Counted from the whole stretch's first letter, positions 1,830-59,059 are shown. The stretch is DNA of 63,047 bases, filler included, from Reclinomonas americana ATCC 50394 (GCA_048213135.1; 7 parts of 6 records of this genome joined end to end with filler, not necessarily neighbours in it), one strand, 5' to 3'. Notes: a model not told the origin generated them from the letters alone. Program-made: numbers and translations.

Positions 1830-3731
1830 TTACTCGGCCGCCGTTTTTCGCACCCACAGCTTGGCGTCCTCGAGAAGGAAGGCGCGGAACACGGTCGTCA
1901 CCAGTGCTCGACTCTGCTGCGGCAACTCGCGCACCGCCGAATACGCGAGCTCCACGTTGGCGACCTCCACCTCCAGCGCAGCCACTGTGGCGACAAAGTA
2001 GATCAGCACCCGTCTGACACACCTCTCCTCTCAACCTTTTCCCCTCCTCACCTACGTCAATCAGCGTGTGCAACTGCAAGTTACCGCGACAATGATGTGC
2101 AACAAAATGCTGACCGTCTTCGCTAATGTCGACCCACGCGGCGTCCTTGATGTGGTGCACAGAAGCTCCCGTCCGTGTATCCCACACCCACATTTGCCGC
2201 ACATGCTCCGTCTGGCCACGCAGCCCCAGTGAGCACAGGATCGGAAACACGAACACATCACCAAAGGGGACCACACGCACAATCACAAATATATCGCCGC
2301 TGACCCACGACACCCACGCCACCTGCAGCACAAACACGTCAGGAGCCAGCAACAGCATTTCACACTCAAGCACAGCGCAACTGGGCTCTCGCACTCCAGA
2401 TCCGGCACACACAGCAGCTTGTCACCAGAGGCAATGTGAAACACCTCGAGCACCTTTCGGCGCGATCGTTCACCGCGCACATCCACATCGCTGACGCACG
2501 CAATTCGGGTATCATCGTGACTAAACGCAACTCCGCACCCACCAGTCGGCACATGCAGCAGCGACAGGGAGCGCGGACGTGCTCGAATGTTTGTCAAGTC
2601 GACCAGACACACGTGTGGGAACCAACCCATGACAGCCAGCAGGCCAGAGCGACAACTGATGGCTGCACATTCGGGCCGAAAGGCGACATCCACTGAACCC
2701 ACGAAGCGATCCACTGACGACACCGGAAACCGATTGCGTGCCAGCCGGTACGCGACGATACCATTCTCCAGCATGAACACCACGAAGCGATTGCATGGCG
2801 AAAAGTACTTGATCGAGTGCCGCAACCGGTACAGCGCTCGATCCGAGAACGCCTCGGCCACTCGCCCAGCACGCAGATCGACCCCAATCAGCTTGGACAG
2901 GTTTTCTTGCTGCGGACCGACCTCCACCATCACGCAGTCGGGGCCGCCGTGCGGCGCCAGACTCATGTTCACAATCGGTGAGTCGCTCAGGTCTTTCACC
3001 GCATCGCCCACACGGCGACACGGCCCCATATCCCACAGCTGCAGACCCCCGTGGATATCGCACACCGCCACGCGAGGCGTCTCTCGTTGCCGTGAGCAGA
3101 AGCACAGGCGCGCAGCTGGTGGATCGCTGATGCTCATCTCTCGTGTGCGACATACAAACGGCCGGCGGCCACCAATCGTCGGGATTGCTGACGAAGACGA
3201 GATGGTGGTGCTTGGTGGTGCCGGTCGTGGTGGAGAAGGCGACGCTGCTTGCAGCGGTGGAGCTGGCGGCGGCGGCGGCGGTGGTGGTGGTGGTGGTGGT
3301 GACGGTGGTGGTGACGGTGGCAGTTCTGCCTCCACTGCAGGCGCAACGCGGAGACGAATGGCACCACGCAGCGGCACTGTGGGGTCCAGTACACGATCCT
3401 GATGACGCCAGCGATCGTCAGTTGGACCGTCCAATCACAATGCATCACAATCACAATCACAAACCTTTTGCGTGATCAGAATGCGTCCTTGCACGGCCAG
3501 CGCCGCCGCTGCCGTGCGCACCGCAGGCATCAGTGCACGCCAGGCCTCTGCTGACACTCGCCGCGCCACCTCCGACGGACAACACGACTTGTGCGGTCCG
3601 CGTTCCTGCACCAGTTGCAGAATTGCCGCTTCCAGAGCCGCCTGATCACCCACTGTGCGCGAGACGCAAAGTGTGTCAAACAGACATGCTCACAGAGAGA
3701 GAGAGAGAGATCGTTCTCCTCTCTCGCAACT
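1830..3731 (-). CDS. DUF3253-like N-terminal domain + poly-Pro linker + WD40-like beta-propeller
   Basis: Spliced N-terminus AALEAAILQLVQERGPHKSCCPSEVARRVSAEAWRALMPAVRTAAAALAVQGRILITQK|DRVLDPTVPLRGAIRLRV matches the DUF3253 pattern. It is followed by a poly-Pro run and propeller-like segments (GGLQLWDM, VAFSHDDTRIA, QMWVWDTRTG). Stop TAA at 1830-1832. Start codon apparently split by intron 3653-3730. Confidence 0.65.
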
Positions 3732-3788
3732 GTCTGTGAGTCGACGCGGCGCGAAAATTCATGTCGTGTCGTGTTTTTGTCGCGAGGG

Positions 3789-4524
3789 ATGATGCACGCC
3801 GTGGATGTGGATCGCGAGGCCAAAGTCGCCGGCTGGTTCGCGCGGAATCGACACACGCTGTTGCTCATGGCGTGGTATGCGTGCCACATGTGGCTGTATC
3901 ATCAGCTGAGCGTGAGCATGTTTGACATGCTGGCGGATTATCGCGAGTGGAACCGCCAGCAGCCGCGCACGCCAAGCCACATTGGTCTGGTGAGTGATCC
4001 ACGCACAAGGCGCACAGCACACATACGCACACACCTGCATGCATGCAATGATTGTGACACGTGGGGTCGCACTTGTCCGGATTTTGATTTTCATGCATTG
4101 ACACGTGTGTGTGTCTGCAGGGCTTCATCTTTCTCATCGCCTTCATCATCAGTGCGGTGGTGTCGCTGATTGTCACTCTGATCTCTGGTCGCTGGATCAG
4201 CCCGGTTCTGTTGAATCTGGTGACGCTGTACAAGTGGCGCGAGCTGAATGCTGCTGTCGCCGCCAGCCAGTGGAGCTCGCAACTTGGCGACCTCGCCTTG
4301 GGTTCGTACAGACCCTCCCCCCTCCCCAGTGACTCCGCTCACATGCCTACCCCCTCTCTCTCCCTCTATCAGAATACGGCATGGTGCAGGTGGCTGCACT
4401 GGTCGTCACGGTGGTCAACGGACTGCGCCTGCTTGCCGGCTGGTTTGGGTGGCTGACCGCCGTCTTCATGAGCGTATCGCTCTTCTTCCTGACCAGTTAC
4501 ATACTGGTGTTGCTCGAGGACTGA
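3789..4524 (+). CDS. Small multi-pass membrane protein of unknown function, 3 exons
   Basis: ATG at 3789; introns begin GTGAGT and GTTCGT; hydrophobic segments (GFIFLIAFIISAVVSLIVTLI; FGWLTAVFMSVSLFFLTSYILVLL); TGA at 4522-4524. Confidence 0.6.
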
Positions 4525-4551
4525 GGTGAATGAAGAGCACGCAACCACCCT

Positions 4552-7500
4552 TCACTGCGGTGCGCCGGCACGGAACTCGCGAATTCTCTCCAGCAGATCG
4601 GGACCTACAAGGCACCATTCCTCGTCACCATCAATTCCAGTGTCTCGCAAGATCGCACATGGAACACGTGACGCAACGAGGTATCAGGTCGGCCTCGGAG
4701 ATCGGCAAGTTGGTGAACGGATTCTTGCCCTTGTCCATGATGCATCGCCGGATCGCGTCGCGGTCAACCACTTGCCCGCTCGGCAGCTCCACGGGGTCGC
4801 TCATGAGGTCGTCGGTCAGCGCATCTGCGTGCGAGAGCAGCAAATTAGCAGTGGCACGCACCCATATACTGTGGCGCGCATACCACGCAGTTCAGGCGGC
4901 GGATCGGCAAAATAGGCAGCCTGCCGTTCGACCACGAGCTCCGCGTCGACCAGGCGACGCAAGAACATGTCGAAGCGGTCGCACTTGTCGTCCGGAATGA
5001 TTCCACGATTGCGCAAGAGCACCGAGGCGTTCTCGAATGTGCGTCTCTTGTAGTACAACGTGTCTCGTACGACAGCCAACGGAAACTGCTCCTCGTCCGA
5101 CATGCACACATACATGCTGGCGGTCTCGCTCAGCAGTCGCCGCGGATCGAACTTGTACTGCTCGCGATTCTCCACCTGGCGCGCAGGCCGACCACGACGA
5201 TCAGTAACACGAACAGTCAACCAGCCACACACTGTACTCCCATCATTTCTCACCTGCAACTGCGAGTTGGCATTGGTCAAGTAGTTCAGCAAGTAGTTCA
5301 GGACGCCCACAACACGCGGCAGCATCGCCTGCGAGACAACACCATAAGCACCACAAGCAGGCAGTGTGAATGCGTGCTCGACGAGACCTCGCTGCAGAAA
5401 CGGCGGGGAATCATCTCCGACATCCAGCGTGTCATCTCGGTGGTGGCCATGGAGCACGAAATGTACGACTTGGCGCTCTTTTGGTTCTCTCGGTACTCGC
5501 GCACCTGCGCCTCTTGTGCGTCCTGCGCACGAGCAAGTGTCAGAACACAGCTGTGTCGTCGCCCTAAAAAATGGAACAGGGAGACTGACCGCCGGGAGCG
5601 ACAAGAAGGCTTCTTCGTGGCGCTGCAGCTCGTGCTCCCGAATCTTCTTCAGCGTGGCAATGGTCTCGTCCAGCAGATACGTGCAGTCGTTCAGCAGCAT
5701 GTGCAAAAAGTGATCAAAAAGCGAAGTGCTGTGGACACAGACCGTCAGCATCAGCAAGAACTATGCGCACGTGGAGGGAGCCAACACACGCACTTGGCCA
5801 AATCGAGAATGCGCGGCGTCCAGTGTCGGTGGGAGCGCATCTTGGCGAACACAAGAGCCACCAGGTGGCGTGCCTGGTACTTGTCGAATCTCACTGCAAA
5901 TACACAGTCAGATCACAATCAATATTCGCTGTCACACAAGAGCACACCACGCAACGTGCTTCCGCATCCACATACAGCTGAATGCTATTGTGTGAACAGC
6001 GGGGTCAGTGAGCTGTACATGCACCGAGGAGTGGAAAACGACGAAAAATGACGCAACATGCCAGGCACGAGCATCGCCGCAATGTCGGGATTGTCGAGCA
6101 TCACGAGCAGCGACGGTTCTCTCTGACCACGCTGAATGAGGTTGTACACCACCTGCGTGCACGCCAAACGTGAGAGCGTGAGTTGGAGGAGGAGGAGAGC
6201 GCATACAATGTCCGTCGCTCGTTGGCGTCTACCTTCAAGAAATCGTGCCGAATGCCTGCATTGGTCACCAGCCGCTTGTGTGCAATGAGCTGGGACATGA
6301 GGGCCAATGACCATGCGCACGACTGCACTTGCAGCACATTGGCGCTCTCGGTAAGTGCCGTGAAGTGAGCCAGCAACTCGCCCACATTCTCGGCCAGCAT
6401 TGTGGGCAGCATGGCATAGGTCGGCGGGACCTCGTCGGGAATGGATCTGTTGGTGTGCACGCAAGTCAGCCAACGCAGGTGCCAGCGCGTTGTGTGCGTG
6501 GCAGACTCATACCGCACGCTAGTCGGGCTCTCCAGCGCGTCGGGACTGCTACCAATGGCGTGTGCCAGCAGGTAGCGTGATGATGCCTCTGTGCGACAGG
6601 AACACAGTTCAGTCAGCGGTGCCAGGTATACACGTACTGCTCGGCAACGCACCGAGGTAATCCATCATAGGCAAGAACACATCGCGATCGTAGATCAGGC
6701 GATCAGTGGCCAGAAGCCACCGCCACTGCGGCATGAGTGGCTCCAGACCCTGCATCCCACACGAAAAAATAAGCAAAAGAACACACATCGCCATCAGTGG
6801 GGGCACGACGGCGGCGCACCTGGCCAGCGTGCTCGATTTCGGCCTGGTGGTACGTGTTGGCGGTGAACTCAAACACCTTGCGGGTGCGTATGAGACCCAG
6901 ATTGATGCAGCGGGCGGTCATGAAAAAGAGCTCCGAGTTGAAACTCTCCGGCACCTCCGGATGCTCTGCGACCGGCGTCATTCACGGCGCGCCATATTTG
7001 AGTTACACTAGAGCGCCACACAGACACACACCTCCTGCTAGATACTGTTGCACATTCTCCTCCGACCACACCAACCGATCGAGTGGGTGCATTGCGCAGT
7101 AGCGCTTCGTCAACGTGTACTCGGGTGCAATGGTCGACAGACGGCTGCCGGTGATCACCGGAGCCACCAAGTTCAACATAATGGCCGACAGGTTCAAGAA
7201 CTGCGACACATGCGTGTGAGACATGCAGACAGGCAAGGCGGCAGCAGTGCTCTCGCGACACGCAACAAAGCCCTCGGTGCCAAACTGGTGATCGACGTCA
7301 CCACCAAACAGCTCAAACTGCGGGTGAGAAGCAATTGTCAGCGTGCGTGCGTGTGCGTTGAAGAGCTGCAACGCAAAAAAACACACCCGAATGGAGTTGC
7401 GCATACGGCTGGCGTCCAGCGCCACGCCGATCCACTGCAGAAGTGCCGCGCGCGAAGGACTGTTGCGATCCTTCAGAAAATTGCGGAAAATCTGAGTGAG

Positions 7501-9388: not shown

Positions 9389-12300
9389 TCAAAATTTGGC
9401 ATCGTGCCCGTGCACGAAGCCTCCCGACAAGTGACGGTACTCCACAATCTGCTGCCGAGCTCGCAACTGCGAGTCGTTCAGCAGAGCCAACTGTCGTAAT
9501 GTGATGGCGGAGGCGCGCTCGTTGCCGGCGACGTCGATGCTGCGCAGCGTGCTTCCCGGCCGCGACAACGACGACACAATGGCGAGAATCGCTGCATCGT
9601 CCAGATGATTGTCTGTCGGTGGCGACGAGTGGTGAGTGCAGTGACTAACGAGTGCGGCGCTGTGACGGAGTCGTGCGTACCCGAAATCATGAAGCGTCGT
9701 AGACTGTTGTTTTGCCAGAGGGCGGTCGCCAGCATGAGGCCACCAAACGTCGCAATGCGTTGCCCTGTGACGCAGTGAGAAGGTCAGCCTCTCTTCCCCC
9801 CAGCGCGCCCGTTGGTGAACGGACTCACATGACACGTCGAGCACTCGGAGTGTCGTCGTCTGCTCGACGAAGCGAGCCACAATGACGGCGCCCTTGTCGG
9901 TCAACAGATTGCCTGACACAGAAGCAACGCACGGTTAGTGGCGTTGAGGAGGCTGCGCGAATATGGAACACCGCAGACGTAACGACTAATGTCGAGGTAG
10001 GTGAGTGTTGGACATTGTGCGGCGCCAGTCAGCAGCGCCTCGATGCCGGCATCACCAATTTGGTTGCCTGCATTGCACAAAGTGAGTCTGCGACCGCAGT
10101 TCTCGTGTTCCACATTTGCACTCCACCACACCTGCCAAGCAGAGCCGCTGTAACCTGCCGTTTTGCGGCAGGTGCACGAGAATGTGGTTGGCCAGCTCTG
10201 GACCAATGTTGTTCTCTGCACATTCTCAACATCAGTCAGCGGCTTGTAGTTTCACAACGCAGTCGCTGCATCGTAGCCCCGTACCGCTAATGTTGAGTTC
10301 GGTCAACGACGTGTTTTGCGTCAAGCGCTCCCACAAAAAGCGGGAGCCACGGGCGCCCAGCTTGTTGCCGCGCAGATTCAGCGACGTCAGCGTCTGGTTG
10401 ACGGCCAACGCACTGGCCAGTGCCGCGCCACCAAACTTCATGAAGCCAAACTCGCTGCTGCCGGGGCTGACGGAGCTGAAGCCTTTGCCGCCACGCCCTG
10501 CTCCCAGACACACGCCGAATGAGCACATGCCTTCTCTCTCTCTCTATCAAGAAACAGAGTGGCGTACCTGTTGCAGAGTCATCGCGTCCACCGGTAATGT
10601 TGTTCCACTCGAGATTCAGGCGGACGAGTGCCTTATTATTCTGCAGAGCCTCCGCAACCATGGCCGCACCCTCGTCTTTCAGATCGTTAACTGTATGCGG
10701 GAAGACCAGTGAGACAGGTGAAATAGCTGTGCTTTCGCCCAGCCCCATCGCCACGCAACAGCCGAGTGACAGGCATTCGAGCGTCGGGTGACCATCCACA
10801 AACTGGGCGAGAGCCACCGAGCCAGCTGGACCGCAGTGTGCGCCACTCAAGTCCAACGAGCGCAGTGGTGTGATGCGCTCCGCCTGCACCACCTCTCCCG
10901 CTGCGATTTGCTCAGCCTCGACGGCCTCGGACCGCTGCTGTCTCCTCAAATGCCGCATCAGTTCACGCACAAGTCGCTCCGTGGATCCACGCGGCACCAG
11001 AACTGTGCACGTCCAAAAAAAGGTGAGACAACAAACAGGCGGAGAAGGACAGGCCCCTCCCAGCTGCGCGGTCGCACCTCGAAGGTGGCTCACTCCCGTG
11101 AATGCCTCGGTCAGTGCCTCGAATTGGTCAATCTCGTGCAACTCGGCGCACGTGGCCTGTGCGTACACCATTTCGCACCAGGCTCGCGATGTCATGCGTG
11201 TGGGTGCCAGGTCGCCCACATTCAAAAATGAGAATATTCGTTTCCACAAGGCCTGCGTTGCCGCTATCGTGGGTATTCCCTCTCGTTGTTTTCCCCTCTT
11301 CAATACACGTGCACTCACCGGTTCCGGCAGCAAGTGATCGAGACCGCGGAGTGGCGACACCGGCCCCCGCGCTGTCGCCAGCGCTCCACCGGCGCCGACA
11401 CGTTTCCGGCTGAGTGGCGACGGCTCCGAGAAGGTGTACTTGAGTGGTGGTAGTTGGGTGACAGCCGCCGTCGCCGTGTCGATGCTGAGTGGGGCGGCGT
11501 ACCGTGCCTTCGGCTTTGGCACAGCAAACGACGGATTGTTACCGCCAGCGGCTGCCGATTTCGGGTGCGGTGGCACGCCAAAGGTGCGTGGCGAGGTCGA
11601 TGACGAGCTGCCAGAGGAGGACGACGAGCCGGAGCTGCGACCACCCGAAAACGGACTAATGCGATTGTTGTTGCGCGTTGTGCGTACCAACGGTGGTGTC
11701 AGCCGCCGTGCCGGATCGACCAAAGTCGCCGCTGGTGGCATGAGTTGCCTGGCGGTCTCGGTGCTGATGAGTGGCGTGGCAGAGGGTTCGGAGCTGCGGC
11801 GTTGCGACGACGATCGTTGTAGCCGTGGAGGCACAAACGAGGACGGAGCAGGTGGGGCCGACGGCAACGCCAACGGCAACACCGGCTGCTCCTCGTTGGC
11901 CAGCGACGGCAGCAGTGGTGGCAGCTGATCCTCCTCCATCGCCTCCGGCTCGTCGACTGGTGAGAACGATGCTGGTGGCAGGGATGCCGCCTGCGCCGTG
12001 TTGCTGCGCACTGCAACGCTGTCATCGTGCGGCGAAAACGGCGCCTCGACAGACCGTCTGAACAGCGACGGCGAACCAGAGGAGAGCGGTGGTGACGGTG
12101 ACGGCTGTGGCGAGAATGCCACAATCGGCAGCAATGCAATGTCAGCCGCATCCACGACCACCACGTCGTCGTCGTCGTCGTCTTCTTCGCCCTGTTGCAT
12201 CTCCTCGGGTGGTGACACGGACGACTTGACGGATGCAGATGATGCCGACGACGCCGTTGATGCTGATGACGATGACGAGGAGGAGGAGGAGGAGAAGGAA

Positions 12301-13194: not shown

Positions 13195-14948
13195 TTACAG
13201 AATGGAAGCCAGCGCATTCTCAAAACGATAGGCGCGCGCGGTGCTGGCCGGCAAGCGGTTGACAGCCGCACGTGCAGTTTCGACACCGCCCCACGGACTC
13301 TCCTTCGGGTCCAGCGGCGCGAAGAAGGGATCTGCAAGGCAATCCCGTGAGAAAATAATTGCAGAAAAGCTCCAAGTCCACAGCTGGAGAAACGCAACGA
13401 TCGGTGCCAAACATGACGCGGCTGGGGTCGGCGAGCTTGGAGAGGGCCGACATGGCGGGATCGCCGTACACCAGGCAGTCGTAGTACAGCATGCGGAGGT
13501 AGTGAGACGGCGGGTGGGCCAGCTTGTGAGCCACCTGTGACAGTGGTCAGTCAACTCACGAGGGAAAAGAGGAATAGAAGAGAAAGCGCACCTCCTTGTC
13601 TGTGTGGACGCAGTGATCGAGGCGGGCCATGAGGTACGGCAGGGTGCCACCGCCGTGCGCAATCAGCATGCGCAGCTGCGGGTGACGATCGAGCACGCCC
13701 GACAGCACCATGCGACACACGGCGGTCGTGGTCTCGAACGGGAAGCCGAGTGCCAGGTACAGACTGTGACCGTAGCCACCTACGCGCGCACACACACACA
13801 CACACATATGAGACAGGGCGCCGAAAAGAATGCCCGTCAACAACCGGGGAGAATGCGAACCGCCATACGCCTCGTTGCCGAGACCGTAGTGCGGGTGCAG
13901 GAAGAGCATCAACTTGGTGCGCTCGAGCGCCGACCACAACGGCTCCATGAGCGGATCGTCCAGACCGCGACCGAGCCCCGTCGAGCCAATGATGAATCCA
14001 CGGCAGTGCGGGAGACGCGCCACGCGTTCAATTTCCTCCACACATGCTTGCGGATCGGCCTGCACACGCAAGGTCAGCGCAGAGCAAAAAAACACGACAC
14101 GCACCCAGCGACGCACGCACGCACCACCGGCAACACGCCAAACCACAACAGCCGCCCATTCGAGTTGGCACTCATTCTGCACACTGCGTGAGCAACGATA
14201 ACGAAGGAGCGAAAAAAGAGCGCGGCGCAAACGCAACTGCTCCAGATCGTCATTCACGATCTTGGCCAGTCCAGGCGCCTCAGCCGCGCCCACAAAGTCC
14301 AGCCACGGATTCGCCACACTCACCACCGACACCTACAACGAAGGTCAGCAGCAACAACACAGAGCACAGGAAGAGCTGTTGCTGGACCTGAATCTTATGC
14401 ACGTCCATGAAGCGGATCTTCTCCTCGGCCGAGTAGAACGAGGGCCCAATGACACGCCCGCGCTTGGTGCTCGCCTCCGCCGCCTCATCCGGCAGGATCA
14501 CCAAGCGATCCTCTCCACTCTCCGCGTGCCGAAACACAAACGGAACCGTCGAGCGTGCACGCATAATCTACAACCCCCCCGTTATAGTGTTGGCGACGAA
14601 TGCACAAGAGTGGAAGAGTGGAAGAGCGCAACATCCATGTACACAGGCGGATACATGTGCGTGTGCACATCGACCGTCCAGCCCTCCTCGTAGCGCTTCA
14701 TCGCCTGCGCACTCACCGACTACGCGCACGTGGCATGAGCGTGCAACAAAACACACACACTTGCACACAGAGGAGGAGAACGCAACANNNNNNNNNNNNN
14801 NNNNNNNNNNNNNNNNNNNNNNNNNNNNNNNNNNNNNNNNNNNNNNNNNNNNNNNNNNNNNNNNNNNNNNNNNNNNNNNNNNNNNNNNNNNNCGACTGTG
14901 ACGCCACACAGGCAACGCGCGAGCCGACGCACGCAACAACATGGACAT
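13195..14948 (-). CDS. Amidohydrolase-2 family decarboxylase, isoorotate (uracil-5-carboxylate) decarboxylase/ACMSD-like; contains an N gap
   Basis: Spliced motifs VDVHTHMYPP, SVANPWLDF, FLHPHYG, LALGFPFETT, AHGGGTLPYL, MFGTDHPFF. N-terminus MSMLLRASARALPVWRHS resembles a mitochondrial presequence. Confidence 0.88.
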
Positions 14949-15038: not shown

Positions 15039-15641
15039 TCAATCATACACACCCCACCGCTCTCGCCGCAGCTGCTCCACCTGCGCGCGTCGCACCGACG
15101 GATCGCCACAACACCGCTTATGCTTGCGCCCACTGCCACACAGACACACATCATTCGGTCGCTGCTGCATCAACGCGCGTCCTCCAGCGGCACCCATGCG
15201 CGCAGGCAGTCCCAGTGATGCAGCAAGTGCCGCCTGCAACGCCGGGTCATCGTCTTCGTCAAGTGGAGGTGGTGGAGCAGGCTCATCGTCCTCCTCGTGT
15301 TGTTGTTGGTGTTGTTGAGGGTTAAACATAGACGCGGGATGCAACTGCTCAGCAGACAGCTCGCCCTCCAGTCGCTGGAAGCCCGGGTTGAACACCGAGT
15401 ACGCCGACAGCTCACCAGGCGCCTGTGCACAATGCACACAGTCAGGTCTTTGTGTTTCATTGTGACTTTTTCTGCTCATATAATACGCGACTCGTGTTCG
15501 CCGATCGAGTGTGAGATAGATGCCGGCAAAGGCGCTGAAGATAAAGTAGAGGATGCCGCCTTCGACAGAGAGGGCCCATGAGTAGCCGGCAATCCACACG
15601 GCGAACAGGAGGAGAAGACGTTGCCAGGTCCACGCAAACAT
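15039..15641 (-). CDS. SAYSD1: SAYSvFN-domain membrane protein with C-terminal UIM-like and SEC-C-like motifs
   Basis: Hydrophobic hairpin, then GELSAYSVFNPGFQRLEGELSAEQ; DDDPALQAALAASL; RPNDVCLCGSGRKHKRCCG. One intron at 15423-15491. Start codon uncertain. Confidence 0.85.
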   Translation of the reverse strand: MFAWTWQRLLLLFAVWIAGYSWALSVEGGILYFIFSAFAGIYLTLDRRTRVAYYMSRKSHNETQRPDCVHCAQAPGELSAYSVFNPGFQRLEGELSAEQLHPASMFNPQQHQQQHEEDDEPAPPPPLDEDDDPALQAALAASLGLPARMGAAGGRALMQQRPNDVCLCGSGRKHKRCCGDPSVRRAQVEQLRRERWGVYD

Positions 15642-17970: not shown

Positions 17971-19727
17971 CTATGAACTAGCCCCGTCGGTTATTGACAC
18001 GGGTGCTGCGTCGGCGGCGCTGGCACCAGCCGCCATGGCGACTGCGGCTTCCACCGAGGCGGCGGTGGCCGACAGCCGGAAGCTGATGTGCTTGGTGATG
18101 AGGTCAATAGCAACTGTGCAAGCACATGCCTCTTGTGTCAGCTAGGCAGAGAAACAGGGAGCAAATGCACGAAATGAGGCTCACCAAAATTGTCACCACC
18201 GCGGGGGATGATAATGTCGGCCCACTTCTTCGTCTGCAACGGACATGCGTTTGTTAAGCTGCTGCGCGACTCATTCCACAATCATCGGAGATGGGCAACT
18301 TACCGGGTTGATGTACTCGTCGTAGCTCGGCTTCACACTCTTCTCGTACTGCGTCAGCACCGACTCGAGAGTTCGACCGCGCGACGTAATGTCTCTCCGA
18401 ACTGAGCAGCAAGGGAATCGTCAGCGCTCAACACACGCACGCACACAGAGAATGCGTGTCTGTGGAGGTGACACGCAACTGCGTCTCTGGTGGTGGATCG
18501 TGAGAAGCACAGCAAGTGAGTGAATCGTTGACGTGCACACAACAACGCGCGTGCAAGCATGCATACGTACCGCCAGCCGGGTATCAGAATCCTGTATCGT
18601 TCATTGCGGAGGTCAGCACCAAGTTTGCGAAACACAGGAGACATGTGGGCAACGGTGACGCAACAGTGTCCACAAAGATCTTCATGTCCATCAGCTCGCG
18701 GGCCTCGGCATCGTACAGTGCCATAATACCCTGCGACAACACACAGATTCGGCGATGAGCGAAAAGCGATCGATCCTGCTCCAGTAATCGCTCGAGCATC
18801 CGCACCTCGATGATCACCACCTCGGTGCCCTGCACGCTAGTGTGGCCCACCTGCACCGCCCAACCCCACAGTCAGCCAGCCACTCATGCACGAACTCACG
18901 AACGGATCATCAACCAACACACCCTCGAGTTGGTCTTGAAGTCATACTTTGGAATCTGCACAGCCTTGCCTGCAACGGACATCAGCACACACACTCACAG
19001 CTACATCGCCTCTCATCGGAACACACCTACACGCAGCGCCCACAGCACATCGCGGAACAGCTGGTGATCGAACGCATCTGCAATCACACTCGCCACTGTG
19101 AGCCATCGCTGGGCAGTGACACACACTCACTCGCTTCTCATGCTGCCTCGCACCTGGATGATCAAAGTTGTACGCTCCGGAGTGTGCCAGATCCTGCTCG
19201 TCACTGCCACCATCGTCAGACAGACAGACAGTGAGAGAGAGAGAGAGAGCTCTGACACCTACTCACCAGGTCAACTCCTTGTAAAAGTTGTCGTGTGACA
19301 CCATGGTAACCCGGCCATCCAGTGCCGCACAGATCTGCAACACAACGCACATGCGGTGAGTGGCACTCCAACGCGCATATGCGTGCACAAGTCGATCGCC
19401 ACCAAACCTTGTCACACACAGTGGTCTTTCCAGAGGCCGTGCCACCCGCCACACCTGCATTACACAAAGAGAACAAGTCCATTTTCAGGAGCAGGGGGGA
19501 GGTCACGGGGGTGCGTGTCAGTCACAAGTGCACATGCACATGCACAGAGACAAGCACAACACACAACACACACACACACACGCGCGCGTGAACGGACCAA
19601 TGATGAGTGCGCGACGTGAGGGCGTCAGTGGAACCTCCCTGTGTCGACCAAAGTCACCGCCCTCCTCCACATCGTCAATCTCCTCCTCGTCAAAGGTCTC
19701 CAACTCGGACAGTGCGTGTGAGGTCAT
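17971..19727 (-). CDS. UCK: Uridine(-cytidine) kinase
   Basis: Spliced [91 protein letters not shown]. Confidence 0.95.
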
Positions 19728-20904: not shown

Positions 20905-21004
20905 NNNNNNNNNNNNNNNNNNNNNNNNNNNNNNNNNNNNNNNNNNNNTTAATTAATTAANNNNNNNNNNNNNNNNNNNNNNNNNNNNNNNNNNNNNNNN
21001 NNNN
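20905..21004. other. Artificial scaffold spacer N44-TTAATTAATTAA-N44
   Basis: Exactly 100 nt with a six-frame stop linker at 20949-20960; the identical design recurs six times in the window. Confidence 0.97.
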
Positions 21005-35316: not shown

Positions 35317-37073
35317 ATGCGGCCACTTGCACTGGCTCTCTACATTCACTGGCCGTGGTGTCATCGCATATGCCCGTACTGCGACTTTGTCAAGTTCTAT
35401 ACGCACAATCGCCTCTTTGTGGGCGCACATGCAGAGATTCTGATATTCGCTTTCCAGGTATCGATGGCGATCCGAGGTGCACGGATCGGTTGACTATGTG
35501 CAGCGCATGACGAGGTAAGGCGAGCGATCGATGTGTGAGCGATTTTCTCAGAGCATTGATCGCGTGTCAGATCGATCATGCGAGCGATCGATGCGATGCG
35601 ACCTGCGGCAGACAACTCGACGTCGCTCTGGTCGATCCATTTCGGTGGAGGAACGCCCTCGTTAGCACCAGTGCGTTGCATCACCACTGCTGTTGCCCTT
35701 TCCGATCGGTTTGTTGATTGGCGGCGCAGTCGTGGGCGGTGCGAGCGATTGTCGAGCACGCCAAGGCAGTGCTCGGTGCGCCGATCAGTGGAGAGGTGGG
35801 ACTGGAGGCGAACCCGACCGAGTCGCTGCTGTCGGTGGAGTACATGGATGCGTTGCGAGAGGCGGGCGTGACGCGCTTGTCGTTGGGTGTGCAGTCGTTT
35901 GTCGATGAGCGGCTGCGCGTGCTGGGGCGCGATCACAGCGGCGAGGTTTGCTCTCGGGGAACTCGCCGTTGTGTGTATGATGCTCATGTGGCTGTGGCAG
36001 GAGGCGCTGCGGACGGTGCGTGCGGCAATGGAGCGCTTTCCGCACGTGTCACTCGACTTGATGTATGGGTTGCCGTCGCAGTCCACTGCGCAGTGGGAGA
36101 GCGAATTGGAGGTCAATCCCCACCCGACTCTATCAGTGTGCATTCACTCACAGTGGTTGTGGTGGTGAGACAGGAGGCGCTGCAGATGTGCAACGTTCGA
36201 CACGTGTCGCTGTACCAGCTCACGCTGGAGAAGAGAACGGCGTTGCGTGTTGATGAGTGTCAGCTGTTTTTTGCATGCCACTTATGTGCTCGTGCAGGTT
36301 TGCTCGCCTGCACGGCGCCGGCAAGCTGCAGGTGCCCGACGAAGACGAGTGTGCTGAGCAGTTTGACGCGGCAGTGGCAGTGGCGCGACGACACGGACTG
36401 CACCAGTATGAGGTAGTGTGCACGAGTGAGCAATGTTGCCTCGCCGACTCGCTCACACCACGTGCATGCAGATCAGCAACTTTGCGGCCTCGGAGACGGA
36501 CGAGTCGCGGCATAATTCACACTACTGGCACGGTGGCAGCTACATTGGCGTGGGGCCTGGGTTGCGTGAGAGCTCACCATGCTTCGACTTTGACTTGTGC
36601 AAGACAACTCACCACTGTTGTGATGCCTGCGCAGCGCCCACTCGCGCCTCCCATCGGCCGACGGGCAGCACCACTGGGCCACGGTGCAGATACTAGTTGC
36701 GTGCAGTCTGGTGCACGCTGGTGACGTCCCATCGTGCCTCACGACTTGTCGGCAGGATCCCGAGACATGGATGCAGCAGGTGGAGGCCGGGAACGACGGG
36801 TGCGTCCGACGCGATCCACTCACACATCGCCAGCGCGCCGAAGAGTACGTTCTCACTGCGGTGCGAACGCGACGCGGAGTGCACTGGAGCACGGTGCAGG
36901 AGCTGCTGCCGGCCGCCACGAGCGATCTGGTGAACATGGACATGCTGCACCATCTGGCTCACGAAGCCGGCCTCGTGCTGCTCCACGCACATGGTTTCAC
37001 GCTCACGCCAGCTGGCCTCCGCGTGGCCGATACCATTGCCACGCAGCTGCTGTTGCCACCAAGTGCAAGGTGA
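35317..37073 (+). CDS. RSAD1: HemW/RSAD1 radical-SAM heme chaperone (HemN-like)
   Basis: LYIHWPWCHRICPYCDF (CxxxCxxC), SIHFGGGTPSL, LEANP, RLSLGVQSF, DLMYGLP, HVSLYQLT, YEISNFA, SRHNSHYW, YIGVGPGAHSR. Confidence 0.93.
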
Positions 37074-37456: not shown

Positions 37457-38757
37457 ATGGGCGAGGAGAAGAAGCAAGACAAGCCGAGCAGTTACGCACA
37501 TGCAAAGAGAAGAAATGAGAAAGTTGCATGTGTGTCTCACTCACTCTCTTACACAGCTGGTGCACCGGCTGCATGGAAGAACTTTGTCGCTGGTGGTGTT
37601 GGCGGTGAGCACTCACACATACTCTCACTCTCTCACACGCACACATGCGCGTTGCAACTCACAACCTTGTTGCTCAGGCACGTTTTTGGTGTTTGTCGGG
37701 CACCCACTGGACACAGGTTTGCATTCCCACTCACACACGCACTCATCACTTGCATGTGTCTCACTCGTGCGCGCGTATAGTCAAGGTCCGCCTGCAGACA
37801 ATGACCGCCACTGCTGGTGCCCCGCAGTTCACGGGCGCACTCGACTGCTTCCAGCAGACACTGAGGAAGGAGGGCGTTGCGTGCCACTCTCGCCTCTCTA
37901 CTCTTGCCTCTCTTGCCTCTCTCACTGTCGCCAAACGCATAGTTCCGCGGGTTGTACAAGGGCGTCGGGTCGCCACTCATGGGCATCTCTTTCCTCTACT
38001 CGATCTGCTTCTACTCGTACGGTTTCGGCAAGAGCCTCTTTGCCGACAAGAACGACCCCGGCAAACCGCTCTCCATTCCCGCCATTATGGGCGCCGGTTG
38101 CGTCGCCGGCTTTGCCACCACAGTCACGTCCCTGTTCCCCCCTCCTCCGCTCATGGCTGCATGCTGACTGGTGAACGAGCAGATTGTGACGGTGCCGATT
38201 GAGCTGGTCAAGGCACGCCTGCAGATCCAGTACGCCACCGGCTCGGCCGAGTACAAGGGCGTCGTGGACTGCGCTGTCAAGGTGTATCAACGCAATGGAA
38301 TTGCCGGTCTCTATCGTGGTGTGATGGTGACGCTGCTGCGCGACGTGCCCGGCACGGCCGCGTACTTTGCCGGCTACGAAGTGGTGCGACGAGCGCTGGT
38401 CAAGGACGGTCAGAGCCTCGATTCTGTCAGCAAGTGGGGACTGCTCTTTGCCGGTGGCATGGCCGGTGCGTTTCTTGTTGTGCGGGAAAACACCACTGCG
38501 TCTGACTTGTGTGAACAGGCTGGGCCAACTGGCTGGCGATCTTCCCTATCGACGTCGTCAAGTCGCGCCTGCAGACGCAGCCAGACACACAACCACCGCG
38601 CTACACGGGTACTCTGGACTGCTTCCGCAAGATCTACCGCGCCGAGGGCATGCGCGGCCTCTTTGCCGGCCTCACCCCGACCATGGTGCGCAGCTTCCCG
38701 GCCAACGCCGCCTGCTTCTTCGGTTACGAGCTGGCCATGGATCTGTTGGGTCGCTAA
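37457..38757 (+). CDS. Mitochondrial carrier family protein (carnitine/acylcarnitine- or ornithine-carrier-like), 7 exons
   Basis: Three signature repeats PLDTVKVRLQ, PIELVKARLQ and PIDVVKSRLQ; RDVPG; RSFPANAACF. Confidence 0.93.
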
Positions 38758-42520: not shown

Positions 42521-42620
42521 NNNNNNNNNNNNNNNNNNNNNNNNNNNNNNNNNNNNNNNNNNNNTTAATTAATTAANNNNNNNNNNNNNNNNNNNNNNNN
42601 NNNNNNNNNNNNNNNNNNNN
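42521..42620. other. Artificial scaffold spacer
   Basis: N44-TTAATTAATTAA-N44. Confidence 0.97.
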
Positions 42621-43072: not shown

Positions 43073-47464
<4,392 letters not shown>

Positions 47465-48021: not shown

Positions 48022-48641
48022 ATGAACGCCGCCGTGCGCCGAGTGCTCTTCCTCTCGCGACGCAATGTCGCCTTCTTCTCTGACTCAGCAGCAACCGCAC
48101 CTCCTCCGCCAAAGCGCGCCGATCTGCCTCGAGTTGCACAACTGATGCACACTGTCACTGCCTCACTCTCTCTCACACATTGCCCGCGCAGGTGGCTGCT
48201 CGGCAACCTGTGGAGATGCACTTGGAGAGCGGCAAAACCTTCTCGTGGTGTGCATGCGGACTGAGCAAGAAGAACGTTGCGTGTGCATGTCAGTGTGCGC
48301 GTGATTTTGGGGAAGTCAACTCAATCGCTCTCTTCTTGTGCAGCCTCAATGCGGTCTGTCTATGTTGGACACACAGAGAAAGAGAGCAGTGCATCACTCG
48401 CTCGCTCACTCACTCACTCGGATGCACACAGATGGATCGCACAAAGGCACTGGATTCAAGCCGGTGCGCATCACACCGGGACCCGAATCGTTTCGTCTTT
48501 GCCCACCTCCTCCTCCTCCTCATGTCTTCCTCGCACTCAAAAATTGTGCACCACAGAGGCATTCCAGAGGATGTGTGGCTCTGCAACTGCAAGCGCACCA
48601 AGACGCCGCCGTTCTGCGACGGCTCGCACAATCAACTGTGA
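48022..48641 (+). CDS. CISD3: CDGSH iron-sulfur protein with two domains (CISD3/MiNT-like), presequence-like N-terminus
   Basis: Spliced [24 protein letters not shown] and VWLCNCKRTKTPPFCDGSH. Confidence 0.92.
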
Positions 48642-48789: not shown

Positions 48790-48889
48790 NNNNNNNNNNN
48801 NNNNNNNNNNNNNNNNNNNNNNNNNNNNNNNNNTTAATTAATTAANNNNNNNNNNNNNNNNNNNNNNNNNNNNNNNNNNNNNNNNNNNN
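48790..48889. other. Artificial scaffold spacer
   Basis: N44-TTAATTAATTAA-N44. Confidence 0.97.
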
Positions 48890-56120: not shown

Positions 56121-56165
56121 GGTGTAACATGTGATTTCAACTTGCTTCTTCACCTCGCTGATTGA

Positions 56166-59059
56166 TCATTGCACTGCAGACACGACGAGCAGCGTGTGGT
56201 GGCCGAACTCGTCACCCACGTCGAAATCGACAAAGGGTTCGCGGCACAGCGGGCACTGAGCGCCACCGGAGCGCTGTCGGCCGAGTAGAAGCTGTGCGCA
56301 GCCTTGGCACAACAGTTGGTGACCGCATGGCTGCAGGCGTGTGTCGCGTAAACCGTCGCACATTTGGCAGGCGTGCCTGCAGGCGACGGTGGCCAGCGTG
56401 CGCGACTCGGCCGCTAGCTCATCGGCCGACGGACGGCGCTCCAATTCGTCACTCACGCAACTGCATCACCGAGCTCGTCAGCACAGCCCTCAAGACTGGT
56501 GGCCACCATCAATCGTGCACTCACCGCAGTGCCAGCCTGACGATGCGAGTGCACACTGGCGACGGCCACGTACGCCCCGCCTGGCCGTCGGCCAACTCGG
56601 CTGCCTTTGCTTCGAATGCATCCACCGCTGACGAATCACCAGTGCCCGCCTGATATTCGAGTCGTCCCAGAGTGGCCAGCTGTGCATGCACCTCGTCGAC
56701 CGGCAAACCCGAGTACAACTGCAGCAGGATGATGCCGAGCGAGAAAATGTCAGCACTCGGTCGCAGCTTGCCGAGAAGCGCTTGCCGATCTGCGTAGCCA
56801 GGATCGCCGGCAACCTGCACCGACATGTGGGTCTGCGTTGCAACGCGCAGTTGTTCAGTGGTGGCATCAGTGGCACACGATGTCACAGCGAAAGCGTACG
56901 TACCCCATCGGTGCGAAACAGTTGCGCGATGCCCAGATCGGCCACATGCACTTCTCCGGCGTCGTCGAAGAGAATGTTGGCGGGTTTGAGATCGCGGTGA
57001 ATGACTGTCAACACGTATCGTTATGCACCGCACGAGAAGATTCATGCTTTGCAGAAACTCACCGTTCTAAGCAGCAAAAGTCACGAGAGTGGGACTCGGG
57101 TTAGCACCACTGGTGTCTGTCTCACTGCACAAAGTAACATGAAGAAAACATACCATTCTGCGCACACTGCGTCAGCATCTCACGAGTGACACACTGCGCG
57201 GTGAACGCCGTACGCAACTTGTGCAAGTTGGCGACCACTTCCGCACACCGAGCGAAGCAGTGCGTGCGGTCTTCGATTGCCATTGGCCGCAGATGGTGCC
57301 TCTGGTTCTCCAGCAGTCGATGTTGCAGATTGTGCTCGCTGCAGACAAAAGTTGAGCGCACAGTGAGCGTGTTGCAGACAACAAATGCGCTGGCGGCTTC
57401 ACCTCATGCGCTCGAGCACCAGGCATCGCTGACCGGCATCCGACTCCGAGAACCCAATCAGTCGAACAATACCCGGCATGGCGGCCGCCTGCAAAACGTC
57501 CAACTGGGCAGCCGTGCAGGGATCAGTCTCACACAACGTGGCACAGGAGATCCGACAGTGACCTACCTCGCTGGTGAACGAATTGATGTGACGCGCAGCG
57601 GCACCGTCAAACACCTTGACGGCCACCAGCTGCTTGCCGAGACTACCCGCGTACACTATGGCCTGACCTCCTCGACCGATGCGCTGTGCAAAGCCGTCCG
57701 TCATGGCAACAATTTCGTCCCACGAAAACGGTCTCGGCACATCTTTGTTGCGGTGCCACGGATGAGCTATGAGTGGGCGAGTGCTGCTCAAATGAAAGAG
57801 GCAAATACACACCACGTCGATTTCCGTCGACGCCTCCTCTTTGTACACGGTCGAGTTCGGCAGCCAGCAACGCTGCACGCTGGCGATACTCGTCCATCTG
57901 CGCCACTTCCAAACGCAACAACCGCTGCTGCTCCTGCATGTCAGCGACGACGGCGTCGCGCGCTGCCAGGTGGCCTCGCAGCTGTTCGATCTCGGCCTCG
58001 CGCTGCAGCTGATGCTCATGCCATCTCCTCATGGCCGCCTGCTGCTGCTCCTGGTACCCTCGATGCAATGCAGCGATCTCAGCGTCGTGCTGCAGCGCAC
58101 GAACTCTCACGGCGGCACGCTGCTCCTCCAGCTCACGCTGCAGGCGTGCTACCGCGTCTTCCAACTCGCGCACACGACTCGCCTGTCCTTTTTCCTGAGC
58201 CGGGGACGCACGCATGAGGAAGACGCGACGGCTTCAACACGACGAGCAGAGTCGTCAACAATAACGAACCTGTCTCCGTGGCAGCGGCAGAGGTGGCGCC
58301 TGCGGTGCATCTCGACGTACTGTGTGGCAAGTCAGTCGCCGAGAAAAAGAGGAGGGCGGTAAAGAAAAAACTGCAGCTCACCATCATCCGCCCCCGCTTG
58401 CAGCAACACGTCGATGATTCGCCCCCCTCCCAGACTGCGAGCCAAGTGCAGTGGTGTGCTGCCGAGATCATCCCGCATGCTCAACAACTCGGGTGCGCGC
58501 GCAGCCAGCAAGTGCACAACGCCCTCGTGACCGCGATGCACGGCCCAGTGCAACGCGTTACGACCCGGCTCGTCATTCAGCTCATTCGTGACTGCGCGCA
58601 CCATTTCCACTGGACACCGTCGCTCGTCGGCCAGCAGCCACTGCACTGAGTACCATTGACCGGCGTACGCCGCACGCATCAGTGGTGTCCACCCGTAGTC
58701 GTCGGCAAGCGCCACAAGTTGCGCGCCAACACCACTGTCGGCCCACAGGTAATCCAACATTGCAATGTGCCCGCAGGCGCCTGCGTGACTAAACACCGAT
58801 TCACCACTGTCGGACATCCCACGTCTGCTCAGCAGCACCTCGGCACCCTGCAAGTCCACCAGTTCGCGCAGTGCGCGCACATCGCCATCGGCCGCGAGAT
58901 CGATTACACTCTTGCTTCTCTCTCTCGGATTCTGGTGTTGGTGCTGCTGCGGCAGTCGCCGTCTCCGACGACGATTCTCACTGTGTGTGTGAAAGTGACA
59001 CGGGTGAGTCGCGCATGCACGAGAGCGTGGAGGAAAGGGAGAGCGCGAGGGCACCTCAT
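56166..59059 (-). CDS. Ankyrin repeats + coiled coil + IRAK/RLK-Pelle-like protein kinase + C-terminal RING finger
   Basis: Ankyrin motifs GWTPLMRAA, GRNALHWA, GSTPLHLA; kinase PFSWDEIVAMTDGFAQRIGRGGQAIVYAG, VAVK, VIHRDLKPANIL, ADLGIA, GDPGY, ADIFSLGIILLQL, RRPS; RING CQMC...PCGHQLLCQGC...CPLCR. Confidence 0.88.

What the first reader, a model, noticed from the sequence alone, without database searches (positions are those of the whole stretch)
2375..57218. A second, abundant class of 5' splice site shifted by one nucleotide (|GTTGCGT) across most genes
Seen in the sequence: ordinary donors here are mostly G|GTGCGT, GTGAGT, GTACGT, GTGTGT or GTTCGT, with G at +5. About 40 introns (hand count) instead start GTTGCGT/GTTGCGC or the parallel forms GTTACGT, GTCACGT, GTCGCGT, GTTGAGT, GTTGTGT and GTTTCGT. 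This is the same consensus displaced by one base, with G at +6 and none at +5. Examples, given as the first intron base: minus strand 2381, 4677, 5955, 6057, 7266, 8931, 9066, 9983, 10759, 13398, 14237, 14632, 15491, 18479, 18664, 20813, 43205, 44040, 44773, 49941, 57218; plus strand 16835, 25448, 29664, 30662, 36242, 36561, 36696, 37491, 37876, 38123, 48276, 48490. Conserved motifs fix the boundaries: FGTD-H-PFF (C|AT), KIFVDT|DSD, GVGP-G-AHSR, KKN|PQCDGSH, KEG|FRGLYKG, TEGF|FLNLS. Established knowledge: atypical GUUAAGU-type donors read by U1 in a shifted or bulged register are known in mammals as rare exceptions. Inference: this organism uses the shifted register as a routine mode, which may involve altered or variant U1/U6 snRNA recognition or a dedicated factor. 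I do not know of a description of this at such frequency.
Basis: partly seen in the sequence, partly recalled or inferred. Interest (0 to 1): 0.93.

Follow-up and report, generated by a model that had tools for sequence, protein, structure and literature searches.

The report
Abundant one-base-shifted intron start signal
In this intron-dense microbial eukaryote roughly a quarter or more of the introns begin GTTGCGT, the usual start signal pushed one base into the intron, a way of marking introns known in humans only as a rare exception.

Summary
All 33 listed sites carry the stated heptamers. GTTGCGT occurs 46 times against 16.3±3.6 in dinucleotide shuffles. 25 of the 46 sit on predicted intron starts and 1 lies inside the 12.7 kb of predicted intron.

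Exact boundaries were tested against homologues at 30 junctions in six conserved genes, chosen because they contained listed sites. 13 are ordinary G+5 donors and 4 are ambiguous. No listed site was refuted.

In my gene models 47 of 173 introns (27%) belong to the shifted class, and GTTGCGT is the commonest donor heptamer. The two classes share length, branch site and acceptor, and their interiors are unrelated. They are therefore ordinary GT-AG introns, not U12-type and not introners.

The last exon base behaves like position -2 of ordinary donors (G in 5/47 against 81/109), and +3 is T, then C. This favours a shifted register over a bulged one.

The snRNA side could not be tested: no genome, no RNA-seq run listed, and no snRNA gene in the window. 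I rate it a new variant of a known kind, with no description found in the searched literature.

The parts
2375..57218 (.). Span holding the 47 predicted shifted-class introns (G at +6, none at +5) among 173 predicted introns in 24 gene models
4605..4677 (-). Shifted-class intron (ctc|GTTGCGTC, 73 nt) in the U-box of a Ufd2/UBE4-like gene
   Evidence: Best of 57 GT/GC-AG junctions against the Ufd2 HMM (54.1 vs 49.2 bits). Ties for best among 3220 unconstrained deletions, and is the only GT-AG placement among the ties.
5985..6057 (-). Shifted-class intron (cat|GTTGCGTC, 73 nt), Ufd2-like gene
   Evidence: Best of 20 junctions, 86.2 vs 82.2 bits
5894..5955 (-). Putative shifted-class intron (cac|GTTGCGTG, 62 nt) after a 29-nt exon (5956-5984), Ufd2-like gene
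   Evidence: Breaks the frame if retained. The HMM does not discriminate: rank 4 of 38, 86.2 vs 88.8 bits. Inconclusive.
7201..7266 (-). Shifted-class intron (ttt|GTTGCGTG, 66 nt, in frame, no stop), Ufd2-like gene
   Evidence: Best of 152 junctions (35.0 bits); retention scores 19.2
5329..5387 (-).
   Evidence: Best of 46 junctions, 32.2 vs 11.7 bits
13332..13398 (-). Shifted-class intron (atc|GTTGCGTT, 67 nt) splitting FGTD-H-PFF of an iso-orotate-decarboxylase-like amidohydrolase
   Evidence: Unique best of 5661 unconstrained deletions (65.8 bits; next 62.4). Best of 68 GT/GC-AG junctions.
14177..14237 (-). Shifted-class intron (gca|GTTGCGTT, 61 nt), same gene
   Evidence: Best of 25 junctions, 50.9 vs 46.2 bits. 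The alignment to PDB 4lal keeps the same offset (90) on both sides (read together with the spliced translation).
14568..14632 (-). Shifted-class intron (gat|GTTGCGCT, 65 nt), same gene
   Evidence: Best of 57 junctions, 74.2 vs 68.7 bits; within 0.4 bits of the unconstrained maximum
15423..15491 (-). Variant shifted-class intron (cga|GTCGCGTA, 69 nt, in frame) inside a SAYSvFN domain
   Evidence: The upstream exon ends at Pfam profile position 39 and the downstream exon starts at 40
18592..18664 (-). Shifted-class intron (act|GTTGCGTC, 73 nt), uridine-cytidine kinase gene
   Evidence: KIFVDT|DSDTRLA: alignment offsets to human UCK2 (6pwz) leave exactly the 9 residues that the two microexons supply
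18402..18479 (-). Shifted-class intron (gca|GTTGCGTG, 78 nt) following a 7-nt microexon (18480-18486)
37876..37942 (+). Shifted-class intron (ggc|GTTGCGTG, 67 nt), mitochondrial carrier gene
   Evidence: tblastn of P0151: residues 136|137 abut at 37875|37943. Best of 45 junctions, 77.3 vs 72.6 bits.
38123..38182 (+). Variant shifted-class intron (aca|GTCACGTC, 60 nt, contains an in-frame stop), mitochondrial carrier gene
   Evidence: Best of 73 junctions, 166.2 vs 160.4 bits
48276..48343 (+). Shifted-class intron (aac|GTTGCGTG, 68 nt) in the first CDGSH motif, followed by a 10-nt microexon (48344-48353)
   Evidence: Splicing gives C-A-C-GL-S-KKN-P-Q-C-D-G-S-H. This has the same spacing as the uninterrupted second CDGSH copy of the same gene.
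36561..36634 (+). Putative shifted-class intron (tgg|GTTGCGTG, 74 nt), HemW/RSAD1-like radical-SAM gene; likewise 36242-36297 and 36696-36755
   Evidence: The NCBIfam HemW alignment of the upstream exon ends at the donor. The PDB gave nothing. Partial support only.
14060..14124 (-). Ordinary-class comparator (gtg|GTGCGTGC, 65 nt) in the same gene as three shifted-class introns
   Evidence: Best of 39 junctions
18487..18570 (-). Ordinary-class comparator (gcg|GTACGTAT, 84 nt) between the two uridine-kinase microexons

Best explanation
These are ordinary U2-type GT-AG introns that use a second, abundant 5' splice-site consensus, H|GTYGCGT (mostly |GTTGCGT). It is the organism's usual G|GTGCGT signal displaced one base into the intron.

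Shown: cleavage lies immediately before the GT of GTTGCGT. The class makes up about 27% of predicted introns, and 13 of 30 homology-tested junctions. Its introns have the same length, branch site and acceptor as the others and are not copies of one another.

Inferred: the 5' end of U1 pairs one position further into the intron than usual (shifted register). The intron's G+1 takes the place of the usual exonic -1 G. U+3 takes the place of U+2, and GCGU at +4 to +7 takes the place of +3 to +6. U+2 is left unpaired. The cut itself is still set later by the catalytic core on the true GU, so the later U6 contact would have to accommodate one extra base.

The stricter consensus of this class would compensate for the lost base pair.
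For: Boundaries. In every homologue-HMM scan of a consensus site except 5955, the |GTTGCG junction is the best GT/GC-AG solution: 4677; 37876 and 38123; 14632, 14237 and 13398; 7266 and 5387; 6057. In the six any-dinucleotide scans it has the optimal intron length and lies within 1.1 bits of the maximum. Zero-gap offsets to PDB UCK2 support 18664 and 18479. Pfam profile positions 39|40 meet at 15491. An internal CDGSH repeat supports 48276.

Abundance. 47 of 173 predicted introns, and GTTGCGT (25) is the top heptamer. An unsupervised two-class mixture on donors predicted without any motif recovers ca|GTTGCGT (about 50 sites) and G|GTGcGt (about 80-90 sites).

Same machinery. Median length is 69 vs 68 nt. 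Branch motifs are CTCAC/CTGAC, 19 vs 18 nt from the 3' end. C at acceptor -3 is 38/47 vs 89/109.

Shifted rather than bulged. G at -1 is 5/47 vs 81/109. S(-1) matches C(-2) (p=0.65) and not C(-1) (p=1e-16). Position +3 is T 36, C 7, A 2, G 2. The shifted duplex scores -2.9 and the bulged one +2.2 kcal/mol, and the free MFE duplex of the consensus is the shifted one.

Compensation. Register +4 C is 41/47 vs 44/109 (p=3e-8). Register +6 T is 39/47 vs 61/109 (p=0.001).
Against: No transcript evidence and no snRNA sequence could be obtained.

The class tables come from my own gene finder. Its last rounds scored positions -4 to +10 of donors, which can sharpen class differences. The motif-free round and the raw list (1 G in 33) agree, but they are smaller.

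Only -1 and +3 separate shifted from bulged. Positions -2 and -3 fit either alignment equally well.

With a textbook U1 end the shifted duplex is weak: -5.2 kcal/mol for the best consensus and about 0 to -2.7 for individual sites. The near-fixed C at +5 would face a U1 pseudouridine, so ordinary U1 pairing does not explain it.

The 30 tested junctions come from genes picked because they contained listed sites, so 13/30 overstates the genome-wide share. 5955 was not resolved, and 17 of the 33 listed sites have no homology test.
Confidence: 0.6

Rival explanations
1. Same introns, but U1 (and U6) pair in the ordinary register with one U of the GUU looped out (bulge at +2/+3).
For: GUU allows the bulge to sit at either U. 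This register is validated for a few human sites: 68 predicted, 54 after curation, of 201,541 (Tan et al. 2016, PMC4856993, Table 3). Exon positions -2 and -3 fit the unshifted alignment as well as the shifted one. U6 must tolerate an extra base in any case.
Against: A bulged register keeps the -1G:C pair, yet G at -1 is depleted to 5/47, against 81/109 in ordinary donors. A looped-out base need not be T then C. The evaluated duplex scores +2.2 kcal/mol, against -2.9 for the shifted one.
Confidence: 0.13
2. The organism has an altered U1 5' end, or a second U1 variant or other dedicated reader, complementary to GUUGCGU or GUGCGU. The class would then be read by full pairing rather than by a strained register.
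For: The class has a rigid consensus (C at +5 in 41/47, T at +7 in 39/47), which an ordinary U1 end does not explain. Rigid donors are typical of introns with their own reader.
Against: No snRNA could be examined. The shifted and ordinary consensus share the same GCGU core, as expected from one reading head. Branch site, acceptor and length are identical in the two classes. The U1 5' end is conserved in nearly all eukaryotes (general knowledge, recalled).
Confidence: 0.2
3. The boundaries are mis-set. The real donor would be the GC three bases downstream (GTT|GCGT..., adding a valine) or another nearby site, or the segments are retained.
For: GTT|GCGT is often the second-best solution in the scans. 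It outranks the listed site at 5955, 88.8 vs 86.2 bits. 8 of the 47 introns would stay open if retained.
Against: The GC alternative scores 4-9 bits lower at 4677, 37876, 14632, 14237, 13398 and 6057. 39 of 47 introns break the frame if retained. Retention of 7266 costs 16 bits. Profile and PDB offsets are gap-free only with the listed boundaries.
Confidence: 0.03
4. A recent burst of a mobile intron (introner) that carries GTTGCGT at its end.
For: One heptamer heads many short introns of similar length.
Against: Interiors of shifted-class introns are no more alike than those of ordinary introns or mixed pairs: mean local score 13.1 vs 12.6 vs 12.9, and the 99th percentile is about 22 in all three. 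There is no target-site-duplication or terminal-inverted-repeat signal. Ordinary introns have the same length distribution.
Confidence: 0.03

Closest known systems
Shifted-register 5' splice sites of mammals (Roca & Krainer 2009, known to me through its citation and Figure 1B legend in Tan et al. 2016, PMC4856993)
   Same: The GU is followed by a U, and the U1-complementary block is displaced by one base. There is no G at +5 and a G at +6. Cleavage stays at the true GU.
   Different: In humans these are rare exceptions. All noncanonical registers together cover 2.1% of 201,541 sites after curation. Here the class is about 27% of predicted introns and carries the commonest donor heptamer. Its block is GCGU, not AAGU. 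No suppressor-U1 proof exists for this organism.
Bulge +2/+3 register 5' splice sites (Roca et al. 2012, via Tan et al. 2016, Table 3)
   Same: A GUU start with the rest of the consensus one base late.
   Different: There are 68 (54 after curation) such sites among 201,541 in humans. A bulged register should keep the -1 G preference, which is absent here (5/47).
U12-type (minor) introns
   Same: A minority class with a more rigid donor than the majority class.
   Different: There is no [AG]TATCCTT donor and no TCCTTAAC branch site anywhere in the window. The branch site and acceptor are identical to those of the majority class.
Introner elements of algae and other protists
   Same: Many short introns with a uniform end.
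   Different: No sequence similarity beyond the splice signals, and no duplications or inverted repeats.

Membership tests
U2-type GT-AG spliceosomal introns | GT at the 5' end and AG at the 3' end, placed so that removal restores the reading frame | tested here: met
   13 shifted-class junctions fixed by homology. 39 of 47 break the frame if retained.
U2-type GT-AG spliceosomal introns | Branch-site motif and YAG acceptor like the organism's other introns | tested here: met
   CTCAC/CTGAC 19 vs 18 nt from the 3' end. C at acceptor -3 in 38/47 vs 89/109. Median length 69 vs 68 nt.
Shifted-register 5' splice sites | No G at +5, G at +6 and U at +7, with U at +2 and +3 | tested here: met
   Position counts for 47 introns: +3 T 36, +4 G 37, +5 C 41, +6 G 47 (by definition of the class), +7 T 39
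Shifted-register 5' splice sites | Exon position -1 behaves like the ordinary -2 (no G preference) | tested here: met
   G at -1 in 5/47 vs 81/109. S(-1) vs C(-2) p=0.65; S(-1) vs C(-1) p=1e-16. Motif-free mixture: G 0.08.
Shifted-register 5' splice sites | Rescue by compensatory U1 mutations in the shifted register only | not testable with these tools
   Needs experiments. The U1 gene is not available.
Bulge +2/+3 register 5' splice sites | Ordinary pairing of -1 and +1/+2 is kept, so the -1 G preference should persist | tested here: not met
   G at -1 in 5/47. The evaluated duplex scores +2.2 kcal/mol.
U12-type introns | [AG]TATCCTT donor and TCCTTAAC branch site | tested here: not met
   0 matches to either motif on either strand
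Introner elements | Copies similar along their length, with insertion signatures | tested here: not met
   Within-class similarity equals the between-class background. No target-site duplication or inverted repeat.
GC-AG introns (reading GTT|GCGT) | GC at the first two intron bases, with the frame and homology best at that site | tested here: not met
   Lower HMM score in 6 of 7 scans, by 4-9 bits. Higher only at 5955.

The most novel reading that the evidence does not exclude
This lineage has re-tuned 5' splice-site recognition. Either its U1 5' end has changed (the near-fixed C at +5 predicts a G where other eukaryotes have a pseudouridine), or it has a second U1-like RNA. Either way, a quarter or more of all introns would be defined one base out of the universal register, and the U1-to-U6 hand-off would routinely accommodate an extra nucleotide. 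That would be a natural two-register spliceosome.
Probability: 0.2. Interest if true: 0.9.

Novelty: new variant of a known kind. Interest (0 to 1): 0.78.

Why it matters
G at +5 is among the most conserved intron positions in eukaryotes. Pairing registers displaced by one base are known only as rare exceptions in humans, found by mutational work.

An organism that uses such a register for about a quarter of its introns would be a natural system for three questions:
- how the cleavage site is kept fixed while the recognition helix moves;
- how U1 hands the site to U6;
- which protein or snRNA changes permit this.

There is also a practical point. Gene finders and pooled donor logos that assume one register will mis-model these genes. 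The window also holds microexons of 7 and 10 nt that only resolve when this donor class is accepted.

Tried and rejected
- RNA evidence: the look-up of sequencing runs listed no RNA holder.
- Whole genome: none is held, so U1, U5 and U6 genes and spliceosomal proteins could not be inspected. Rfam at gathering threshold found nothing in the window.
I sent stop-free ORFs instead.
- The search for homologous proteins with the Ufd2 exon, lengths 'longer', found nothing. The exhaustive search gave only distant homologues, at most 38% identity. No protein of this organism appeared in any search, so no existing annotation could be compared.
- Relatives in metagenomes: one weak hit (L001, 34% identity over 134 residues). 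It looks prokaryotic and has no such introns.
- The PDB gave nothing for the HemW/RSAD1-like exons, so 36242, 36561 and 36696 stay only partly supported.
- The kinase exons around 57218 gave no Pfam hit.
- The ESM Atlas gave no lineage clue.
- Earlier scan notes: none for this genome or this motif.
- Literature: searches for GTTGCGT, GUUGCGU, and GTTGCG or GTTGCGT combined with splice and intron terms returned only primers and unrelated sequences in the listings I saw. Searches on registers, and on bulged sites in protists, returned the human work and general reviews. These cover only CC-licensed PMC papers and bioRxiv.
- Rejected on the evidence: GC donor three bases downstream, intron retention, introner burst, U12-type, and chance enrichment.
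- The first codon-only gene finder fragmented genes and was replaced.

Full report
**What the window is.** It is 63 kb of GC-rich (about 46-60% in 5-kb windows) eukaryotic DNA, gene-dense and extremely rich in introns. Six 100-base blocks of N44-TTAATTAATTAA-N44 show that it is a chain of at least seven contigs joined by six-frame-stop linkers; the other N runs look like gaps. No whole genome is held. No RNA run was listed, and Rfam finds no RNA gene in the window. Stop-free ORFs hit these Pfam families:
- Ufd2 core with U-box, DEAD-box helicase, mitochondrial carrier, Amidohydro_2, uridine kinase;
- radical SAM with HemN_C, Gpi16, DHHC, SAYSvFN, histidine phosphatase;
- ankyrin, LRR_6, protein kinase, RING and CDGSH.

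Homologues in the large protein libraries are distant: 38% identity for Ufd2, 42-52% for the amidohydrolase and up to 58% for the carrier. No protein of this organism itself appeared. I could therefore not name the organism or compare an existing annotation.

**The observation.** All 33 listed positions start with the stated heptamers: 24 GTTGCGT, 3 GTTGCGC and 6 variants. Each is followed by a short intron-like stretch with a CTSAC-type branch motif and YAG, and only one has G at -1. GTTGCGT occurs 46 times on the two strands, against 16.3±3.6 (largest 28) in 100 dinucleotide-preserving shuffles. Its one-mismatch neighbours occur 4-26 times.

I wrote a small dynamic-programming gene finder with self-trained codon usage. 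It required only GT...AG and gave a bonus for a branch motif, a pyrimidine before AG, and intron length. With no donor motif scored beyond GT, it chose GTTGCGT 21 times and GTTGCGC 4 times among 243 introns; no other heptamer was chosen more than 4 times. An unsupervised two-component mixture on those 242 donors recovered two classes:
- ca|GTTGCGT, about 50 sites, with -1 A .38, C .35, T .19, G .08;
- G|GTGcGt, about 80-90 sites, with -1 G .66-.82.

After adding that mixture as a donor score and resolving strand overlaps, I had 24 gene models with 173 introns. Of these, 109 have G at +5, 47 have G at +6 but not at +5, and 17 have neither. GTTGCGT (25) is the commonest heptamer and GTGCGTC (7) is next. 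29 of the 33 listed sites are donors in this set. Of the 46 GTTGCGT occurrences, 25 are at predicted donors, 1 is inside the 12.7 kb of predicted intron, 6 are in 32 kb of exon and 4 are antisense. The other 10 lie outside the retained models, three of them listed sites.

**Exact boundaries, tested by homology.** I built HMMs from homologues returned by the searches. For each junction I enumerated every GT/GC...AG pair that keeps the frame, and in six cases every deletion of any dinucleotide type. Each spliced peptide was then scored. The listed junction is the best GT/GC-AG solution at these sites:

| Site | Score vs next best (bits) | Junctions compared |
|---|---|---|
| 4677 | 54.1 vs 49.2 | 57 |
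| 37876 | 77.3 vs 72.6 | 45 |
| 38123 | 166.2 vs 160.4 | 73 |
| 14632 | 74.2 vs 68.7 | 57 |
| 14237 | 50.9 vs 46.2 | 25 |
| 13398 | 65.8 vs 57.1 | 68 |
| 7266 | 35.0 vs 33.6 (retention 19.2) | 152 |
| 6057 | 86.2 vs 82.2 | 20 |

- At 13398 the listed junction is also the unique best of 5661 unconstrained deletions.
- An unlisted variant, 5387 (GTCTCGT), is also best, 32.2 vs 11.7 bits.
- In the unconstrained scans the listed junction always has the optimal intron length and lies within 1.1 bits of the maximum. The ties are shifts that give the same or nearly the same protein but lack GT-AG ends.
- tblastn of the closest carrier homologue puts residues 136|137 at 37875|37943.

In the uridine kinase gene, alignment to human UCK2 (6pwz) ends at FVDT (chain residue 157). 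It resumes at chain residue 167 in the next large exon. The nine missing residues, DADTRLSRR in human, are supplied exactly by a 21-nt exon (DSDTRLA) and a 7-nt exon (AGACGCA, giving RR and the first base of the next codon). These are flanked by |GTTGCGTC (18664), |GTACGTAT (18570) and |GTTGCGTG (18479).

In the SAYSvFN gene the exon before 15491 (GTCGCGTA) ends at Pfam profile position 39, and the next exon starts at 40.

In the CDGSH gene, splicing at 48276 and after a 10-nt exon gives CACGLSKKNPQCDGSH. This has the same spacing as the uninterrupted second copy, CNCKRTKTPPFCDGSH, in the same gene.

Site 5955 was not resolved: rank 4 of 38, 2.6 bits below a GC alternative. The three HemW-like sites have only partial support from NCBIfam coordinates, because the PDB gave nothing.

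Tally for the 30 homology-tested junctions in six genes:
- 13 clear shifted class;
- 13 clear G+5 class;
- 4 ambiguous (7738, 5955, 5793/5787, 14387).

The genes were chosen because they held listed sites, so 13/30 overstates the share. 47/173 is the less biased figure.

**What the class is not.**
- *A GC donor three bases downstream (GTT|GCGT).* This loses by 4-9 bits in six of seven scans.
- *Retained sequence.* Retention breaks the frame in 39 of 47 shifted-class introns, against 86 of 109 ordinary ones.
- *U12-type.* Neither U12 motif occurs in the window.
- *An introner family.* Interiors of shifted-class introns are no more alike (mean local score 13.1, 99th percentile about 22) than ordinary ones (12.6, 22) or mixed pairs (12.9, 22). 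There is no duplication or inverted-repeat signature.

**Same spliceosome at the 3' side.** Median length is 69 vs 68 nt, with IQR 63.5-74 vs 63-75. The branch motifs are CTCAC/CTGAC with the A 19 vs 18 nt from the 3' end. Acceptor -3 is C in 38/47 vs 89/109, and GC content is 0.55 in both classes.

**How it probably works.** Aligned with a one-base shift, the two consensus sequences coincide: a/c-G-[T]-T-G-C-G-T against a/c-G-[G]-T-G-C-G-T. Two positions can separate a shifted register from a bulged one, and both favour the shift.
- *Position -1.* It has G in 5/47 against 81/109 in ordinary donors. Its composition matches ordinary -2 (p=0.65) and not ordinary -1 (p=1e-16).
- *Position +3.* It is T 36, C 7, A 2, G 2, like an ordinary +2, where C is the usual second choice.

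Positions -2 and -3 do not discriminate. With the textbook U1 5' end (recalled, pseudouridines treated as U), the free MFE duplex of the shifted consensus is the shifted one. The evaluated energies are -2.9 kcal/mol (shifted) and +2.2 (bulged).

The class is also more rigid than the ordinary one. C at register +4 is 41/47 vs 44/109 (p=3e-8), and T at register +6 is 39/47 vs 61/109 (p=0.001). This fits compensation for a lost pair.

The shifted duplex is nevertheless weak: -5.2 kcal/mol at best, against -10.2 for the ordinary consensus. The fixed C would face a pseudouridine of a standard U1. I therefore keep open that the U1 end, or another reader, is altered. Cleavage stays at the true GU, so the later U6 contact must absorb one extra base. 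All of this paragraph is inference from sequence statistics.

A caveat applies to the class tables. The last rounds of my gene finder scored positions -4 to +10 of donors. The motif-free round and the raw list agree with the tables.

**Comparison with what is known.** I read the introduction and the 'Revised list' section, with Table 3, of Tan et al. 2016 (PMC4856993). They describe the shifted register (their reference 10) and bulged registers. They count 68 (54 after curation) bulge +2/+3 sites among 201,541 human 5' splice sites, and 2.1% for all noncanonical registers together.

Here one such register accounts for about 27% of predicted introns and supplies the commonest donor heptamer. 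My motif and concept searches of CC-licensed PMC papers and bioRxiv showed no description of a GTTGCGT-type donor class in the listings I saw. Subscription journals and the genome paper of this unidentified organism were not covered, and supplements were not consulted.

**Verdict.** I rate it a new variant of a known kind, of high interest to splicing specialists if RNA data bear it out.

Noticed in passing
20905-21004, 34758-34857, 42521-42620, 48790-48889, 59183-59282, 61224-61323: Six blocks of N44-TTAATTAATTAA-N44, which are six-frame-stop linkers. The window is a chain of at least seven contigs, so gene neighbourhood across these points is artificial. The other N runs (105-770 nt) look like scaffold gaps or masked stretches.
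   Followed up: partly
18480-18486 (-), 48344-48353 (+), 18571-18591 (-), 5956-5984 (-): Microexons of 7, 10, 21 and 29 nt are needed to rebuild conserved motifs (DxDTRLxRR of uridine kinase, the CDGSH cluster motif, YVDAE of Ufd2). My gene finder also proposed 4-nt exons in the kinase gene (57154-57157, 57063-57066). I did not verify those.
   Followed up: partly
13195-14719 (-): The Amidohydro_2 gene is closest to fungal uracil-5-carboxylate (iso-orotate) decarboxylase structures (4lal, 4hk5; E about 6e-44). This is an enzyme of the thymidine salvage pathway best known from fungi.
   Followed up: no
whole window, predicted introns: The shifted-class introns are enriched in phase 2 (14/47 against 11/109; phases differ with p=0.006). 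This is not explained by a simple one-base slide of ordinary introns.
   Followed up: partly
7201-7266, 10691-10759, 15423-15491 (-); 25448-25510, 36696-36755, 37491-37556 (+): Several introns are multiples of three with no in-frame stop, so frame alone cannot reveal them. Homology shows that at least 7266 and 15491 are removed.
   Followed up: partly
14333-14387 (-): An intron well supported by homology (86.9 vs 69.4 bits) starts cag|GTCCAGCA. It fits neither donor class.
   Followed up: no
48084-48641 (+): A small gene encodes two CDGSH iron-sulfur motifs (CISD3/Miner2-like architecture). The first is split over three exons and the second is uninterrupted.
   Followed up: partly
whole window: (CA)n/(GT)n and (CT)n/(GA)n microsatellites give the commonest 7-mers (up to 186 occurrences). 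They often lie in introns and between genes.
   Followed up: no
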